6,301 bases of DNA from a virus (IMGVR_UViG_3300029796_000386); one strand, 5' to 3'. Shown: positions 1 to 6,074, counted from the stretch's first letter. Numbers and translations: made by a program. The notes: generated from the letters alone by a model not told the origin.

Positions 1-1
1 G

Positions 2-922
2 TCGCGGAACCTGATTTTGTCTGCCATTTGCGGCCAGGTCGCAACACCATTTTATGCCGATGTCTTTATCGCTCATTTTGGCCCTGCGGGGGTAATCGCA
101 GCAAAACTACGGGAACTGGGTATCATTCGCGGCAAAATCGCTACTATCTTCCACGGCATTGATATCTCCAGTCGGGAAGTGCTCAACCACTACACTCCCG
201 AATATCAGCAACTGTTCCGCCGTGGCGACCTGATGCTACCGATCAGCGATCTGTGGGCCGGAAGGCTGCAAAAAATGGGCTGCCCGAGGGAAAAAATCGC
301 CGTATCGCGCATGGGCGTGGACATGACGCGCTTTAGCCCGCGTCCGGTGAAAGCGCCTGCAACGCCGCTGGAAATCATTTCCGTCGCACGCTTAACCGAG
401 AAAAAAGGCCTGCATGTGGCGATTGAAGCCTGCCGTCAGTTGAAAGAGCAGGGCGTGGCATTTCGCTATCGCATCCTCGGCATTGGTCCGTGGGAACGAC
501 GCCTGCGCACCCTCATCGAACAATATCAACTGGAAGATGTGGTGGAGATGCCGGGCTTTAAACCGAGCCATGAAGTGAAAGAGATGCTCGATGACGCGGA
601 TGTCTTCCTGTTGCCATCGGTTACGGGTGCGGATGGCGATATGGAAGGTATTCCGGTGGCGCTAATGGAAGCGATGGCGGTCGGTATTCCGGTGGTTTCT
701 ACTCTGCATAGCGGAATTCCTGAACTGGTGGAGGCTGACAAATCCGGCTGGCTGGTGCCTGAGAACGATGCTCGAGCACTGGCGCAACGACTGGCGGCGT
801 TTAGCCAACTGGACACCGACGAACTGGCTCCGGTCGTCAAACGCGCGCGCGAAAAAGTCGAACACGATTTTAACCAGCAGGTGATCAATCGAGAACTCGC
901 CAGCTTGCTGCAAGCTTTATAG
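2..922 (+). CDS. wcaL: Colanic acid biosynthesis glycosyltransferase WcaL, 5'-truncated at the window edge (C-terminal ~306 aa)
   Basis: The reading frame is open from the window start with no in-frame stop before TAG at 920-922; the TTG at 17 in the ORF track is only the first start-like codon, not the true start. The translation carries the GT-B/GT4 signature ([18 protein letters not shown], the E-x7-E motif) and matches my recollection of the WcaL C-terminus (...[16 protein letters not shown]). It sits immediately upstream of wcaM, as in the cps cluster. Confidence 0.88.
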
Positions 923-932: not shown

Positions 933-1016
933 ATGCCATTTAAAAAACTCTCCCGACGCAACTTCCTGACGGCAAGCTCGGCGCTTGCCTTCCTCCATAC
1001 GCCTTTCGCCCGTGCA
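933..1016 (+). other. Twin-arginine (Tat) signal peptide of WcaM, with predicted AxA cleavage after ARA (residue 28)
   Basis: S-R-R-N-F-L-T fits the Tat consensus S/T-R-R-x-F-L-K. It is followed by a hydrophobic h-region (ASSALAFL) and an A-R-A signal-peptidase site before IPAQQ. Confidence 0.8.
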
Positions 1017-2327
1017 ATTCCCGCTCAACAAAGCGTTAACATTAACGACTACAACCCTCACGACTGGATCGCCTCATTTAAACAAGCCTTCAGCGAAGGG
1101 CAAACGGTCGTCGTGCCCGCCGGATTGGTTTGTGACAATATCAACACCGGCATCTTCATTCCTCCTGGCAAAACGTTACACATCCTTGGAAGCCTGCGCG
1201 GCAACGGCAGAGGGCGATTTGTCTTACAGGATGGCAGCCAGGTGACAGGGGAGGGGGGCGGCAGTATGCATAACATCACCCTGGATGTGCGCGGCTCTGA
1301 CTGCACCATCAAAGGGCTGGCGATGAGCGGCTTTGGTCCGGTAACGCAGATTTATATCGGCGGCAAAAACAAACGGGTCATGCGTAACCTGACCATCGAT
1401 AACCTCACCGTTAGCCACGCTAATTACGCCATCTTACGCCAGGGATTTCATAACCAGATTATCGGTGCCAACATCACCAATTGTAAGTTCAGCGACTTAC
1501 AGGGCGACGCCATTGAATGGAACGTGGCAATTAACGACCGTGATATTTTGATATCTGACCATGTCATCGAGCGCATCAACTGTACTAACGGCAAAATCAA
1601 TTGGGGCATTGGCATAGGTCTTGCGGGGAGTACTTACGATAACAACTACCCGGAAGACCAGGCAGTGAAAAACTTTGTCGTGGCGAATATCACCGGATCG
1701 GACTGTCGACAGTTGATCCATGTTGAAAATGGGAAACATTTTGTTATCTGTAATATCAAAGCCCGCAATATCACGCCGGATTTCAGTAAGAAAGCAGGCA
1801 TTGATAACGCGACAGTCGCTATTTACGGTTGTGATAATTTCGTGATTGATAATATTGAAATGATTAATAGTGCCGGGATGTTAATCGGCTATGGGGTAAT
1901 TAAAGGCAAATATCTCTCGATACCACAAAATTTCCGAGTGAATAATATTCAACTGGATAACATCCATCTTGCTTATAAATTGCGCGGTATCCAAATCTCC
2001 GCCGGGAATGCTGTCTCCTTTGTGGCGCTGACTAACATTGAGATGAAGCGTGCGTCGCTGGAGTTACACAACAAACCGCAACACCTTTTTATGCGAAATA
2101 TCAAGGTGATGCAGGAATCCTCAGTTGGACCAGCATTGAGTATGAACTTTGACATGCGCAAAGACGTTCGTGGTGTTTTTATGGCGAAAAAAGAAACACT
2201 GCTGTCTCTTGCAAATGTTCATGCCGTGAATGAAAAAGGGCAAAGCTCCGTCGAGATCGACAGGATTAATCACCATATTGTTAATGTGGAAAAGATTAAC
2301 TTTAGATTGCCGGAACGGAGGGAGTAG
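933..2327 (+). CDS. wcaM: Colanic acid biosynthesis protein WcaM (464 aa), predicted Tat-exported right-handed beta-helix protein
   Basis: 464-aa ORF with a strong RBS. The N-terminus [28 protein letters not shown] matches the WcaM start as I recall it. The body shows repeated N-I-T / N-L-T / D-N-I segments ([65 protein letters not shown]) typical of the asparagine ladder of a parallel beta-helix (pectin-lyase-like fold). It is the last gene of the cps/wca cluster by position. Confidence 0.92.
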
Positions 2328-2484
2328 ATTTGCGACCATTCATAAACTTACTGGATATAATGTTCTAAAAGATTATAATCCTCACACTAACTGTTAAAGC
2401 TGGGGCTGGGCAGCATTGACTACTCAGGGAAGGTACTCATCTTTATCTTGTGTTTCTTACGTAACAACCAGACTAAAGTGATTT

Positions 2485-3480
2485 ATGAACGATAACGTTT
2501 TGCTCATAGGAGCTTCCGGATTCGTAGGAACCCGACTACTTGAAACGGCAATTGCTGACTTTAATATCAAGAACCTGGACAAACAGCAGAGCCACTTTTA
2601 TCCAGAAATCACACAGATTGGCGATGTTCGTGATCAACAGACACTCGACCAGGCGTTAGCCGGTTTTGACACTGTTGTACTACTGGCAGCGGAACACCGC
2701 GATGATGTCAGCCCTACTTCTCTCTATTATGATGTCAACGTTCAGGGTACCCGCAATGTGCTGGCGGCCATGGAAAAAAATGGCGTTAAAAATATCATCT
2801 TTACCAGTTCCGTTGCTGTTTATGGTTTGAACAAACATAACCCTGACGAAAACCATCCACACGACCCTTTCAACCACTACGGCAAAAGTAAGTGGCAGGC
2901 AGAGGAGGTGCTGCGTGAATGGTATAACAAAGCACCAACAGAACGTTCATTAACCATCATCCGTCCTACCGTTATCTTCGGTGAACGCAACCGCGGTAAC
3001 GTCTATAACTTGCTGAAACAGATCGCTGGCGGCAAGTTTATGATGGTGGGCGCAGGGACTAACTATAAGTCCATGGCTTATGTTGGAAACATTGTTGAGT
3101 TTATTAAGTACAAACTGAAGAATGTTGCCGCAGGTTATGAGGTTTATAACTACGTTGATAAGCCAGACCTGAACATGAACCAGTTGGTTGCTGAAGTTGA
3201 ACAAAGCCTGAACAAAAAGATCCCTTCTATGCACTTGCCTTACCCACTAGGAATGCTGGGTGGATATTGCTTTGATATCCTGAGCAAAATTACGGGCAAA
3301 AAATACGCTGTCAGCTCTGTGCGCGTGAAAAAATTCTGCGCAACTACACAGTTTGACGCAACGAAAGTGCATTCTTCAGGTTTTGTGGCACCGTATACGC
3401 TGTCGCAAGGTCTGGATCGAACTCTGCAGTATGAATTCGTCCATGCCAAAAAAGACGACATAACGTTTGTTTCTGAGTAA
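2485..3480 (+). CDS. gne: NAD-dependent sugar epimerase of the SDR family, Gne-type UDP-GlcNAc/UDP-GalNAc 4-epimerase (331 aa)
   Basis: N-terminal Rossmann motif LLIGASGFVG (GxxGxxG) and a catalytic YxxxK (Y-G-K-S-K). The 331-aa length and the MNDNVLLIGASGFVGTRLLE... start match the gne/Z3206-type gene that I recall lying between wcaM and galF in E. coli strains with GalNAc-containing O-antigens. The position between wcaM and galF fits that arrangement. The Shine-Dalgarno is weak (AAAGTGA). Confidence 0.85.
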   Translation: MNDNVLLIGASGFVGTRLLETAIADFNIKNLDKQQSHFYPEITQIGDVRDQQTLDQALAGFDTVVLLAAEHRDDVSPTSLYYDVNVQGTRNVLAAMEKNGVKNIIFTSSVAVYGLNKHNPDENHPHDPFNHYGKSKWQAEEVLREWYNKAPTERSLTIIRPTVIFGERNRGNVYNLLKQIAGGKFMMVGAGTNYKSMAYVGNIVEFIKYKLKNVAAGYEVYNYVDKPDLNMNQLVAEVEQSLNKKIPSMHLPYPLGMLGGYCFDILSKITGKKYAVSSVRVKKFCATTQFDATKVHSSGFVAPYTLSQGLDRTLQYEFVHAKKDDITFVSE

Positions 3481-3564
3481 TGCAGACGAGTCAGAGAAAA
3501 AAGGACCAGGTTGGACTACGATTATTCGGAAAGAGGTACTGATTAAATTATCTGTATGTGGATT

Positions 3565-3582
3565 TCCGAGTAATCCGAGTAA
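3565..3582. repeat. Perfect tandem direct repeat, 2 x 9 bp (TCCGAGTAA TCCGAGTAA), in the gne-galF intergenic region
   Basis: Read directly from the sequence at 3565-3573 and 3574-3582; the units are identical. Confidence 0.9.
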
Positions 3583-3722
3583 CCCAGATGCTGATGGTGT
3601 GTAGTGTTATCGTAAGGTTTAATCAAAGTTATGCGGAGCTAAGCTTTGGTATATAGCCATAACGTTTGGCTAACCTATGGCAATAATTTACGCACTATCA
3701 GCCACTTAGAGGTAGGAAAAGA

Positions 3723-4616
3723 ATGACGAATTTAAAAGCAGTTATACCGGTAGCAGGTCTTGGGATGCATATGTTGCCTGCCACTAAGGCGATTCCCAAA
3801 GAGATGCTACCGATCGTCGACAAACCAATGATTCAGTACATTGTAGACGAGATTGTGGCTGCAGGGATCAAAGAAATCCTCCTGGTAACTCACGCGTCCA
3901 AGAACGCGGTCGAAAACCACTTCGACACCTCTTATGAATTAGAATCTCTCCTTGAACTGCGCGTGAAGCGTCAACTGCTGGCGGAAGTACAGTCCATTTG
4001 CCCGCCGGGCGTGACCATCATGAACGTGCGTCAGGGCGAACCTTTAGGTTTGGGCCACTCCATCTTGTGTGCACGACCTGCCATTGGTGACAACCCATTT
4101 GTCGTGGTACTGCCAGACGTTGTAATCGACGACGCCAGCGCTGACCCGCTGCGCTATAACCTTGCTGCCATGATTGCGCGCTTCAATGAAACGGGACGCA
4201 GCCAGGTGCTGGCAAAACGTATGCCGGGCGATCTCTCTGAATACTCCGTCATTCAGACCAAAGAACCGCTGGATCGTGAAGGTAAAGTCAGCCGCATTGT
4301 TGAATTCATAGAAAAACCGGATCAGCCACAGACGCTGGACTCAGACATTATGGCCGTTGGTCGCTATGTGCTTTCTGCCGATATTTGGCCGGAACTGGAA
4401 CGCACTCAGCCAGGTGCATGGGGACGTATCCAACTGACTGATGCCATTGCCGAACTGGCGAAAAAACAGTCCGTTGATGCCATGCTGATGACTGGTGACA
4501 GCTACGACTGCGGTAAAAAAATGGGCTATATGCAGGCGTTCGTGAAGTATGGCCTACGCAACCTGAAAGAAGGGGCGAAGTTCCGTAAAGGGATTGAGAA
4601 GCTGTTAAGCGAATAA
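3723..4616 (+). CDS. galF: GalF, UTP-glucose-1-phosphate uridylyltransferase paralog (regulatory, low-activity GalU homolog), 297 aa
   Basis: 297-aa ORF whose translation matches E. coli GalF essentially along its whole length as I recall it ([74 protein letters not shown]...). It has GalF-specific G-M-H-M in place of the GalU G-T-R-M active-site motif. RBS AGGTAGGA lies upstream of the ATG. Confidence 0.95.
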
Positions 4617-4874: not shown

Positions 4875-4913
4875 CAGTGCTCTGGTAGCTGTAAAGCCAG
4901 GGGCGGTAGCGTG
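4875..4913 (+). promoter_or_regulatory. JUMPstart element (39 bp) upstream of the O-antigen gene cluster
   Basis: CAGTGCTCTGGTAGCTGTAAAGCCAGGGGCGGTAGCGTG matches the 39-bp JUMPstart consensus found in the 5' untranslated leader of polysaccharide operons, with one or two mismatches to the consensus as I recall it. It sits 76 nt upstream of rmlB in the galF-rmlB intergenic region, the expected position. Confidence 0.88.
4902..4913 (+). promoter_or_regulatory. ops (operon polarity suppressor) element, GGCGGTAGCGTG, the RfaH recruitment site
   Basis: Exact ops core GGCGGTAG followed by CGTG, located inside the JUMPstart. In the transcribed non-template strand this recruits the RfaH antiterminator. 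Confidence 0.88.
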
Positions 4914-4988: not shown

Positions 4989-6074
4989 GTGAAAATACTT
5001 GTTACTGGTGGCGCAGGATTTATTGGTTCTGCTGTAGTTCGTCACATTATAAATAATACGCAGGATAGTGTTGTTAATGTCGATAAATTAACGTACGCCG
5101 GAAACCTGGAATCACTTGCAGATGTTTCTGATTCTGAACGCTATGTTTTTGAACATGCGGATATTTGTGATGCAGCTGCAATGGCACGGATTTTTGCTCA
5201 GCATCAGCCGGATGCAGTGATGCACCTGGCTGCTGAAAGCCATGTTGACCGTTCAATTACAGGCCCTGCGGCATTTATTGAAACCAATATTGTTGGTACT
5301 TATGTCCTTTTGGAAGCTGCTCGGAATTACTGGTCTGCTCTTGATGGCGACAAGAAAAATAGCTTCCGTTTTCATCATATTTCTACTGACGAAGTCTATG
5401 GTGATTTGCCTCATCCAGATGAAGTAAATAATACAGAAGAATTACCCTTATTTACTGAGACAACAGCTTACGCACCAAGCAGCCCTTATTCTGCATCAAA
5501 AGCTTCCAGCGATCATTTAGTCCGTGCGTGGAAACGTACCTATGGTTTACCGACCATTGTGACTAATTGCTCTAACAATTATGGTCCTTATCATTTCCCG
5601 GAAAAATTGATTCCATTGGTTATTCTCAATGCTCTGGAAGGTAAAGGATTACCTATTTATGGTAAAGGGGATCAAATTCGCGACTGGCTGTATGTTGAAG
5701 ATCATGCGCGTGCGTTATATACCGTCGTAACCGAAGGTAAAGCGGGTGAAACTTATAACATTGGTGGACACAACGAAAAGAAAAACATCGATGTAGTGCT
5801 CACTATTTGTGATTTGTTGGATGAGATTGTACCGAAAGAGAAATCTTATCGTGAGCAAATCACTTATGTTGCCGATCGTCCGGGACACGATCGCCGTTAT
5901 GCGATTGATGCTGAGAAGATTGGTAGCGAATTGGGATGGAAACCACAGGAAACGTTTGAGAGCGGGATTCGTAAAACGGTGGAATGGTACCTGGCTAATG
6001 CAAAATGGGTTGAGAATGTGAAAAGTGGTGCCTATCAATCGTGGATTGAACAGAACTATGAGGGCCGCAAGTAA
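4989..6074 (+). CDS. rmlB: dTDP-glucose 4,6-dehydratase (RmlB/RfbB), 361 aa, GTG start
   Basis: Translation [43 protein letters not shown]... shows the Rossmann GxxGxxG (TGGAGFIGS) and catalytic YxxxK (Y-S-A-S-K). It is near-identical to E. coli RfbB as I recall it, including the GTG initiation codon. It is the first gene after the JUMPstart. Confidence 0.95.

What the first reader, a model, noticed from the sequence alone, without database searches (positions are those of the whole stretch)
2485..3480. gne-type epimerase inserted between the colanic-acid cluster and galF
As I recall it, E. coli K-12 has wcaM followed directly by galF. Here a 331-aa SDR epimerase with flanking AT-rich spacers (2328-2484 and 3481-3722) lies between them. 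This arrangement is characteristic of strains whose O-antigen or another surface glycan contains GalNAc, so it is a serotype-linked accessory gene and predicts a GalNAc-containing polysaccharide in this strain. The biochemical role of this family (UDP-GlcNAc 4-epimerase versus action on an undecaprenyl-PP-linked substrate) has been debated in the literature, so direct characterisation retains some value. The gene looks more AT-rich than wcaL or galF, consistent with horizontal acquisition.
Basis: partly seen in the sequence, partly recalled or inferred. Interest (0 to 1): 0.5.

Follow-up and report, generated by a model that had tools for sequence, protein, structure and literature searches.

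The report
Known gnu epimerase upstream of galF
The gene is real but ordinary: it is gnu, the known E. coli enzyme that converts the lipid-linked first sugar of the O-antigen from GlcNAc to GalNAc, and the matching strain's O51 antigen starts with GalNAc as expected.

Summary
A 331-aa SDR gene lies at 2485-3480 between wcaM and galF, flanked by AT-rich spacers. It is more AT-rich than wcaL or galF, and K-12-type genomes lack it.

The gene is gnu (Z3206 type), which RefSeq annotates as Und-PP-GlcNAc 4-epimerase. Its protein is 330/331 identical to the characterised O157 enzyme. About 24% of complete E. coli genomes carry it at this locus. It is not a member of the Gne/GalE clade: it shares 26% identity over 175 aa with a real gne, and its GalE model score is far below cutoff.

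The window is identical to E. coli Z1323HEC0067, whose cluster is O51.

"Inserted / horizontally acquired" needs qualifying. The wcaM-gnu-galF order is shared by about 35 enterobacterial species, there are no mobile-element scars, and 1364 bp replace 142 bp of the K-12-type spacer.

One side lead: Bacteroidota polysaccharide clusters carry 74-77% identical homologues.

Verdict: already known, low interest.

The parts
1..922 (+). 3' part of wcaL, the colanic acid glycosyltransferase; the gene runs off the 5' end of the window
   Evidence: NCBIfam TIGR04005 wcaL 650 bits, matching profile positions 106-406; annotated as wcaL in the identical genome
933..2327 (+). wcaM, the last gene of the colanic acid cluster; GC falls from 52.1% in the 5' half to 42.2% in the 3' half
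   Evidence: NCBIfam NF007517 1014.7 bits; GC values
2328..2484 (.). wcaM-gnu spacer, 157 bp, 36.9% GC; homology to the K-12-type allele ends at 2341
2342..3705 (.). Segment specific to the gnu+ allele (1364 bp); it replaces 142 bp of unrelated spacer in K-12-type genomes; no flanking direct or inverted repeats
   Evidence: blastn of the K-12-type wcaM-galF junction against the window; repeat scan
2352..2379 (+). Sigma-70-like promoter candidate (TGGATA-16-TATAAT, 10/12), about 105 bp upstream of the gnu ATG and inside the allele-specific segment; a consensus match only
2485..3480 (+). gnu (Z3206 type): 331-aa extended SDR, Und-PP-GlcNAc 4-epimerase; G9xxG12xxG15, D32, S108/S109, Y132, K136
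3481..3722 (.). gnu-galF spacer, 242 bp, 40.5% GC; only the last 17 bp (3706-3722) are shared with the K-12-type allele; no terminator-like site on the + strand
3723..4616 (+). galF, the conserved left flank of the O-antigen cluster
   Evidence: NCBIfam TIGR01105 685.4 bits
4875..4913 (+). JUMPstart element ahead of the O-antigen operon; gnu lies upstream of it and therefore outside that operon
   Evidence: Rfam RF01707, 60 bits against a gathering score of 35, E=2.6e-12
4989..6074 (+). rmlB (rfbB), dTDP-glucose 4,6-dehydratase; first gene of the O51 cluster (L-Rha pathway)
   Evidence: NCBIfam NF007490 792.9 bits
6074..6301 (+). 5' part of rmlD (rfbD); the gene runs off the 3' end of the window
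   Evidence: translation; annotation of the identical genome

Best explanation
The ORF at 2485-3480 is gnu. [quoted passage not shown]

Proposed pathway, by analogy to the O157 system. WecA, encoded elsewhere, makes Und-PP-GlcNAc on the cytoplasmic face of the inner membrane. Gnu inverts C4 of that lipid-linked sugar to give Und-PP-GalNAc. Inferred from SDR chemistry, this goes through a transient 4-keto intermediate using tightly bound NAD+ and the S108/S109-Y132-K136 catalytic set. The four glycosyltransferases of the downstream O51 cluster then add Glc, Rha, Rha and the side-chain GlcNAc. Wzx flips the unit and Wzy polymerises it.

The gene sits outside the JUMPstart-led O-antigen operon and has its own promoter-like site. 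In E. coli it behaves as a presence/absence allele that travels with O-antigen clusters whose first sugar is GalNAc.

Shown here: gene identity, locus, conserved catalytic residues, serogroup context and population distribution. Taken from the literature: the enzyme activity. Inferred: the chemical mechanism and how the gene is expressed.
For: - The protein is 330/331 identical (T53 versus A53) to the gnu product of O157:H7 Xuzhou21. According to PMC3682973, Rush et al. 2010 showed that the O157 enzyme acts on Und-PP-GlcNAc and has no activity on UDP-GlcNAc.
- RefSeq annotates this exact protein (WP_000999477.1) with that function.
- It occupies the canonical position just upstream of galF (PMC7685785).
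- The window is identical to a genome with O51-family wzx/wzy, four glycosyltransferases, rfbBDAC, no gne and no initiating transferase.
- The O51 unit is ->3)[bGlcNAc1-2]aRha1-2aRha1-4aGlc1-3bGalNAc1->. Its only main-chain HexNAc is GalNAc, the pattern that needs gnu but not gne under the scheme of PMC3682973.
- A second, independent O51 genome also carries gnu.
- The other gnu+ serogroups sampled (O157, O146, O160, O102) are listed in Table S2 of PMC3682973 as needing gnu (O160: gnu or gne, gnu present). The gnu-minus serogroups O16 and O25 have only GlcNAc.
- G9xxG12xxG15, D32, S108, Y132 and K136 are conserved in 35-36 of 36 homologues across phyla.
- Gnu co-occurs with a separate galE/gne-type gene in the O102 cluster and in a fucose-type cluster, which argues that the two functions are not redundant.
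Against: - No enzymology was or could be done on this allele, and the T53 variant is untested.
- The primary paper (Rush 2010) is not in the held library and is cited only through PMC3682973.
- Guo et al. 2007, as summarised in PMC5389812, reported UDP-sugar 4-epimerase activity in vitro for O86 Gne1, which PMC3682973 says is identical to the O157 protein.
- No NCBIfam model reaches its cutoff and there is no solved structure of a close relative. How a protein with no predicted membrane segment engages a lipid-linked substrate is unknown.
- The O51 assignment comes from the identical genome, not from the window itself, which ends in rmlD.
Confidence: 0.9

Rival explanations
1. It is a classical Gne: a soluble UDP-GlcNAc/UDP-GalNAc 4-epimerase that supplies UDP-GalNAc, which WecA then transfers to Und-P. 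This is the pre-2010 model and the literal reading of the reader's 'gne-type'.
For: Guo et al. 2007, as summarised in PMC5389812, reported that O86 Gne1 interconverts UDP-hexoses and UDP-HexNAcs in vitro. The protein is an SDR with the same catalytic Ser/Tyr/Lys as GalE and has no predicted membrane segment.
Against: [quoted passage not shown]
- Only 26% identity over 175 aa to a cluster-borne gne; GalE model 71.7 bits against a cutoff of 262.3.
- Its best Pfam and PDB relatives include lipid- and sterol-acting SDRs: 3Beta_HSD E=1.9e-27 and NSDHL E=1.7e-17, ahead of E. coli GalE at 1.5e-11.
- Genomes with two GalNAc-type needs carry both gnu and gne, and in O86 both genes are required (PMC3682973).
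Confidence: 0.05
2. The gene is a hitch-hiking or dispensable passenger in this strain. It is carried with the galF flank by recombination and plays no part in making this strain's O-antigen.
For: PMC3682973 reports 10 cases in which a gnu or gne gene is present without a predicted need. The gene lies outside the JUMPstart-led operon. IS elements have disrupted or deleted the locus in some genomes.
Against: The ORF is intact and differs by a single residue from the characterised enzyme. The O51 unit's only main-chain HexNAc is GalNAc. The cluster has no gne and no alternative initiating transferase. A second O51 lineage keeps the gene.
Confidence: 0.03
3. It is an SDR with a different reaction (dehydratase, reductase or 3-beta-HSD-like oxidoreductase) acting on another lipid or sugar.
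For: No curated NCBIfam equivalog reaches its cutoff; the top sub-threshold hits are HpnA, LegB and OleD. RefSeq names one 93%-identical allele only 'SDR family oxidoreductase'.
Against: Near-identity to the biochemically characterised enzyme, the strong serogroup correlation (PMC3682973), and the conserved polysaccharide-cluster context across phyla.
Confidence: 0.02

Closest known systems
Gnu (Z3206) of E. coli O157:H7, Und-PP-GlcNAc 4-epimerase, clade D of Cunneen et al. 2013
   Same: 330/331 amino acids identical and the same length. Same position between wcaM and galF, with the same 157-bp and 242-bp spacers. Same RefSeq product name.
   Different: One substitution (T53 here, A53 in O157) in a non-catalytic position. 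The downstream O-antigen cluster is O51 (rhamnose type), not O157.
Gne / GalE clade (clade A), UDP-GlcNAc and UDP-Glc 4-epimerases
   Same: Extended SDR fold, a GxxGxxG NAD site, Ser/Tyr/Lys catalytic residues that can be aligned, and C4 epimerisation chemistry.
   Different: Only 26% identity, confined to the N-terminal 175 residues, and below the GalE model cutoff. The substrate is lipid-linked, not nucleotide-linked (literature). The gene lies upstream of galF, not inside the galF-gnd cluster.
GnaB / WbpP / WbgU clade (clade B), UDP-GlcNAcA or UDP-GlcNAc 4-epimerases
   Same: SDR 4-epimerases of N-acetylhexosamine derivatives used in O-antigen synthesis.
   Different: Very distant: phmmer E=1.8e-5 to WbgU structures. 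Different substrate.
3-beta-HSD / NSDHL-type and HpnA-type SDRs
   Same: Best-scoring solved relative is human NSDHL (6jkg, E=1.7e-17). Pfam 3Beta_HSD E=1.9e-27. Best NCBIfam hit is HpnA at 95.5 bits. These act on, or are associated with, lipid substrates, which fits a polyprenol-linked substrate.
   Different: All scores are far below family cutoffs, and there is no C-terminal membrane anchor. The resemblance is suggestive only.

Membership tests
Gnu (clade D Und-PP-GlcNAc 4-epimerase) | Close sequence relationship to the biochemically characterised O157 Z3206 protein | tested here: met
   330/331 identical, no gaps
Gnu (clade D Und-PP-GlcNAc 4-epimerase) | In Enterobacteriaceae, the gene lies just upstream of galF and outside the galF-gnd O-antigen cluster | tested here: met
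   wcaM 933-2327, gnu 2485-3480, galF 3723-4616; the same order in about 35 species
Gnu (clade D Und-PP-GlcNAc 4-epimerase) | SDR NAD-binding motif and the Ser-Tyr-Lys catalytic set are intact | tested here: met
   G9xxG12xxG15, D32, S108/S109, Y132, K136; conserved in 35-36 of 36 homologues
Gnu (clade D Und-PP-GlcNAc 4-epimerase) | Associated O-unit has GalNAc as its initial sugar, and the cluster lacks its own initiating transferase (so it depends on WecA) | tested here: met
   The identical genome has an O51 cluster with no initiating transferase and no gne. [quoted passage not shown] That GalNAc is the first sugar is inferred from this pattern using the logic of PMC3682973.
Gnu (clade D Und-PP-GlcNAc 4-epimerase) | Epimerises GlcNAc-P-P-Und to GalNAc-P-P-Und and is inactive on UDP-GlcNAc | not testable with these tools
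   Known only from the literature on the O157 enzyme (Rush 2010, as described in PMC3682973)
Gne/GalE (clade A UDP-hexose/HexNAc 4-epimerase) | Scores as a GalE-family member and is highly similar to cluster-borne gne genes | tested here: not met
   TIGR01179 71.7 bits against a cutoff of 262.3; 26% identity over 175 aa to the galE/gne-type gene of L010
Gne/GalE (clade A UDP-hexose/HexNAc 4-epimerase) | Gene located within the O-antigen cluster between galF and gnd | tested here: not met
   It lies upstream of galF and upstream of the JUMPstart element
GnaB/WbpP (clade B) | Close similarity to WbpP/WbgU-type epimerases | tested here: not met
   phmmer E=1.8e-5 to WbgU chains, partial alignment only

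The most novel reading that the evidence does not exclude
The enterobacterial gnu lineage at the wcaM-galF slot may descend from a single old inter-phylum transfer involving Bacteroidota. There, 62-77% identical homologues end polysaccharide gene clusters. This would imply that epimerisation of the lipid-linked first sugar (Und-PP-GlcNAc to Und-PP-GalNAc) is widespread in Bacteroidota glycan synthesis, not an enterobacterial speciality. The evidence is a sampling-biased NJ tree: Enterobacterales monophyletic in 200/200 replicates, grouped with Bacteroidales-type sequences in 186/200, sister group unresolved. The gene context supports a polysaccharide role. Neither the direction of transfer nor the function in Bacteroidota has been shown.
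Probability: 0.35. Interest if true: 0.3.

Novelty: already known. Interest (0 to 1): 0.08.

Why it matters
For this window it matters little, because the gene, its locus, its function and its link to GalNAc-initiated O-antigens are all published and already in RefSeq annotation.

Practical value:
- Finding gnu upstream of galF is a reliable marker that the O-unit starts with GalNAc. That is useful for predicting the biological repeat unit, and the window fits O51.
- The family still has no solved structure, and how a seemingly soluble SDR engages a polyprenol-linked sugar is not known.
- A 93%-identical allele is under-annotated in RefSeq as a generic SDR.
- The Bacteroidota relatives are a modest evolutionary lead.

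Tried and rejected
- Structure route: single-sequence AlphaFold2 gave mean pLDDT 39.2 and pTM 0.38, which is unusable, so no fold search was run.
- Primary paper: attempts to read Rush et al. 2010 by DOI and by PMC id failed because the paper is not held. Its content is cited through PMC3682973.
- O51 in published tables: O51 is not listed in Table S2 of PMC3682973, and the FEMS review has no held supplements. The O51 structure was taken from a table in PMC11672820, which cites Perepelov 2011.
- Mobile-element insertion: rejected. There are no direct or inverted repeats at the 2342 and 3705 boundaries and no IS or integrase ORFs.
- Plasmid carriage: only two 'plasmid' records hold the gene, one of 4.8 Mb (clearly a chromosome) and one of 439 kb. 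I did not pursue this.
- RNA motifs: the Rfam scan found nothing in the gnu spacers, only the JUMPstart element downstream of galF.
- Technical failures: a three-way DNA alignment of the junctions was uninformative and was replaced by pairwise blastn. A first bootstrap run timed out and was redone with numpy distances.

Full report
OBSERVATION. The window holds an ORF at exactly 2485-3480 (+), with an ATG start and 331 aa. It lies between wcaM (933-2327; NCBIfam WcaM 1014.7 bits) and galF (3723-4616; GalF 685.4 bits). Further along are a JUMPstart element (4875-4913; Rfam RF01707, 60 bits), rmlB (4989-6074) and the start of rmlD. The protein is an extended SDR: Pfam Epimerase E=2e-30 and 3Beta_HSD E=1.9e-27. 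The gene has 45.1% GC and 48.8% GC3, against 55.4/59.6 for wcaL and 51.3/56.0 for galF. One qualification is that the AT-rich zone already begins in the 3' half of wcaM (42.2% GC) and continues into rmlB (GC3 33.1%), so the gene does not stand out sharply from its surroundings.

WHAT IT IS. A megablast of 2328-3722 against 5426 complete E. coli genomes finds the segment in 1324 genomes, and 1315 of them cover at least 80% of the query. [quoted passage not shown] The whole window is identical, 0 mismatches in 6301 bases, to E. coli Z1323HEC0067 (NZ_CP148378.1). The protein is 330/331 identical to the product of the same gene in O157:H7 strain Xuzhou21; the only difference is T53 here against A53 there. 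According to Cunneen et al. 2013 (PMC3682973), Rush et al. 2010 showed that the O157 enzyme has no activity on UDP-GlcNAc and instead converts Und-PP-GlcNAc, made by WecA, into Und-PP-GalNAc. Cunneen et al. placed these proteins in a separate clade D and named the gene gnu. The name gne is reserved for the GalE-clade UDP-GlcNAc epimerases. The 2019 review of E. coli O antigens states the same and notes that the gene sits just upstream of galF (PMC7685785).

TESTING THE 'gne-type' LABEL. The protein is not a Gne in the current sense.
- Against a genuine galE/gne-type gene that opens an O-antigen cluster (L010) it shows only 26% identity over 175 N-terminal residues.
- The GalE equivalog model scores 71.7 bits against a cutoff of 262.3.
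- WbgU/WbpP-type structures match at only E=1.8e-5.
- Its best solved relatives are human NSDHL (E=1.7e-17) and an unnamed SDR (8rdg), ahead of E. coli GalE (1.5e-11).
- The best sub-threshold NCBIfam hit is the hopanoid-associated HpnA.
This leaning towards lipid-acting SDRs fits a polyprenol-linked substrate, but it is only suggestive. No close relative has a solved structure.

THE GalNAc PREDICTION. The window itself ends in rmlD, so the serogroup is read from the identical genome. That genome has rfbBDAC, O51-family wzx and wzy, four glycosyltransferases and an LTA-synthase-family gene, with no gne and no initiating transferase. The O51 repeat is ->3)[b-GlcNAc-1-2]a-Rha-1-2-a-Rha-1-4-a-Glc-1-3-b-GalNAc-1-> (table in PMC11672820 citing Perepelov et al. 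2011). It has one main-chain HexNAc, which is GalNAc, plus a side-chain GlcNAc. In the scheme of PMC3682973 this pattern requires gnu and not gne, as listed there for O5. Four transferases for four added sugars also fits.

A second, independent O51 genome, whose segment is 98.6% identical at the DNA level, also carries gnu. Other gnu+ genomes sampled across the identity range are O157, O146, O160, O102 (which also has a galE/gne-type gene at the end of the cluster) and a fucose-type cluster with gne. Table S2 of PMC3682973 lists O157, O146 and O102 as needing gnu, and O160 as needing gnu or gne with gnu present. The gnu-minus examples O16:H48 and O25:NM have only main-chain GlcNAc. The sharper statement is that GalNAc is the first sugar of the unit.

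ANATOMY OF THE ALLELE. Compared with a K-12-type genome (wcaM, a 174-bp spacer, then galF), homology runs through wcaM to window position 2341 and resumes at 3706, 17 bp before the galF start. So 1364 bp (2342-3705) stand in place of 142 unrelated bp. This is a replacement, not a clean insertion. No direct or inverted repeats mark the boundaries, and no mobility genes are present. The allele-specific segment contains a sigma-70-like site (2352-2379, 10/12 match), and there is no terminator-like site on the + strand between gnu and galF. These are consensus matches only. Because gnu lies upstream of the JUMPstart element, it is probably transcribed independently of the O-antigen operon; this is an inference.

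IS IT A HORIZONTAL INSERTION? A scan of one genome per bacterial species found full-length relatives in about 35 enterobacterial species, including Shigella, E. albertii, Citrobacter, Enterobacter, Kluyvera, Lelliottia, Cedecea, Buttiauxella and Siccibacter. With one exception (Mixta), the gene sits in the same wcaM-gnu-galF order wherever the flanks are held; in Shigella flexneri and E. albertii the upstream WcaM match is weak (42-46%). Gnu identity to E. coli (82-94%) tracks GalF identity (84-95%) and exceeds WcaM identity (66-83%). Gene GC stays at about 0.38-0.52 whatever the host. In a neighbour-joining tree the enterobacterial sequences are monophyletic in 200/200 bootstrap replicates and roughly follow taxonomy. 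The gene is therefore an old resident of this slot in the family. In E. coli it is maintained as a presence/absence polymorphism in about 24% of complete genomes, most simply by homologous recombination together with the adjacent O-antigen cluster. Its low GC is real, but it is typical of the whole O-antigen neighbourhood and is not evidence for a recent event.

MECHANISM. The NAD-binding G9xxG12xxG15 motif, D32, S108/S109, Y132 and K136 are conserved in 35-36 of 36 homologues spanning several phyla. They align with the SSxxVYG and YGxSK motifs of a GalE-type enzyme. The inferred chemistry is the standard SDR 4-epimerase cycle: hydride abstraction from C4 to bound NAD+, re-presentation of the 4-keto intermediate, and return of the hydride to the opposite face. 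No transmembrane segment is predicted; the highest 19-residue hydropathy window is the Rossmann beta-1 region. Access to the membrane-bound substrate must therefore be peripheral, and how this works is unknown.

RESIDUAL DOUBT. Guo et al. 2007, as summarised in PMC5389812, reported UDP-sugar epimerase activity for O86 Gne1, which PMC3682973 says is identical to the O157 protein. This conflicts with Rush 2010. Three things favour the lipid-linked reaction: the field consensus, the co-occurrence of gnu and gne, and the genetic requirement for both genes in O86 (PMC3682973). I put the classical-Gne rival at about 5%.

SIDE LEAD. The same scan returned full-length homologues at 74-77% identity on megabase contigs of Bacteroidota (Prolixibacteraceae, Draconibacterium, Sunxiuqinia and a Maribellus isolate) and at 62-69% in other Bacteroidales. 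This is closer to the E. coli protein than the roughly 50% that PMC3682973 gives for Yersinia pseudotuberculosis Gnu. In these genomes the gene ends operon-like runs, directly after GT2 or GT1 glycosyltransferases. In one locus a WecA-family PF00953 gene lies 2.3 kb downstream. The enterobacterial clade groups with the Bacteroidales-type sequences in 186/200 replicates, but its sister group is unresolved. The sampling is biased, because the scan needs exact shared peptide words, so the direction of transfer is open. No Bacteroidota entries appear in the supplementary tables of PMC3682973 that are held as text.

VERDICT. This is a real gene, correctly located and correctly linked to GalNAc, but it is already known and already annotated. 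It is gnu, not gne. The 'insertion' is an old, syntenic presence/absence allele. Interest is low.

Noticed in passing
L045-L063, L072 (e.g. L048 4001-4993; L063 3998-4990; L046 4001-4996): Full-length Gnu homologues at 74-77% aa identity on megabase contigs of Bacteroidota (Prolixibacteraceae, Draconibacterium, Sunxiuqinia, a Maribellus isolate), and at 62-69% in other Bacteroidales. They are the last gene of polysaccharide clusters, after GT2 or GT1 genes, and L048 has a PF00953 WecA-like gene at 7266-8399. They are closer to E. coli Gnu than the ~50% reported for Yersinia Gnu, which suggests an old inter-phylum transfer.
   Followed up: partly
L004 6137-7132 (E. coli APEC E956, NZ_CP087294.1): A divergent gnu allele in the same wcaM-galF slot: 93% aa and 80.5% nt identity. 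RefSeq annotates it only as 'SDR family oxidoreductase'. Its flanking wcaM (77%) and galF (93%) are also divergent. It groups with Citrobacter in 161/200 bootstrap replicates, so the whole region looks imported from a Citrobacter-like donor, and the annotation is inconsistent with other alleles.
   Followed up: partly
L005 4288-5237 (E. coli G6/7, O169/O183-family cluster): An IS1A element has replaced the 3' end of wcaM and all of gnu, while the 238-bp gnu-galF spacer is kept at 97% identity. This is an IS-mediated loss of gnu from a formerly gnu+ allele. The consequence for that strain's O-antigen was not examined.
   Followed up: no
window 4875-4913 (+): A canonical JUMPstart element (Rfam RF01707, 60 bits) lies in the 372-bp galF-rmlB spacer. 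It marks the start of the O-antigen operon, and gnu and galF lie upstream of it.
   Followed up: yes
window 933-2327 (wcaM): GC content falls within wcaM, from 52.1% (GC3 63.1%) in the 5' half to 42.2% (GC3 48.7%) in the 3' half. The AT-rich zone therefore starts inside the colanic acid gene, not at the gnu boundary. This could reflect a recombination junction or a protein-composition effect.
   Followed up: no
L001 28377-29987 (outside the window, end of the O51 cluster): An 'LTA synthase family protein' gene closes the O51 cluster just before gnd. The O51 repeat as listed in the source used here shows no phosphate-linked substituent that such an enzyme would add.
   Followed up: no
H39 (E. 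coli BUCT2930, NZ_CP059723.1) and plasmid-collection hits H71, H72: In one genome the wcaM-gnu-galF stretch is interrupted by an IS3-family transposase. The two 'plasmid' records carrying gnu are 439 kb and 4.8 Mb; the larger is evidently a chromosome filed as a plasmid.
   Followed up: no
L012 (Shigella flexneri SFBU0723) and L014 (E. albertii): Gnu is 100% and 97% identical to the window's protein, but the upstream WcaM match is only 42-46% and partial. The colanic acid side of the locus seems to be degraded or replaced there while gnu-galF is retained.
   Followed up: no
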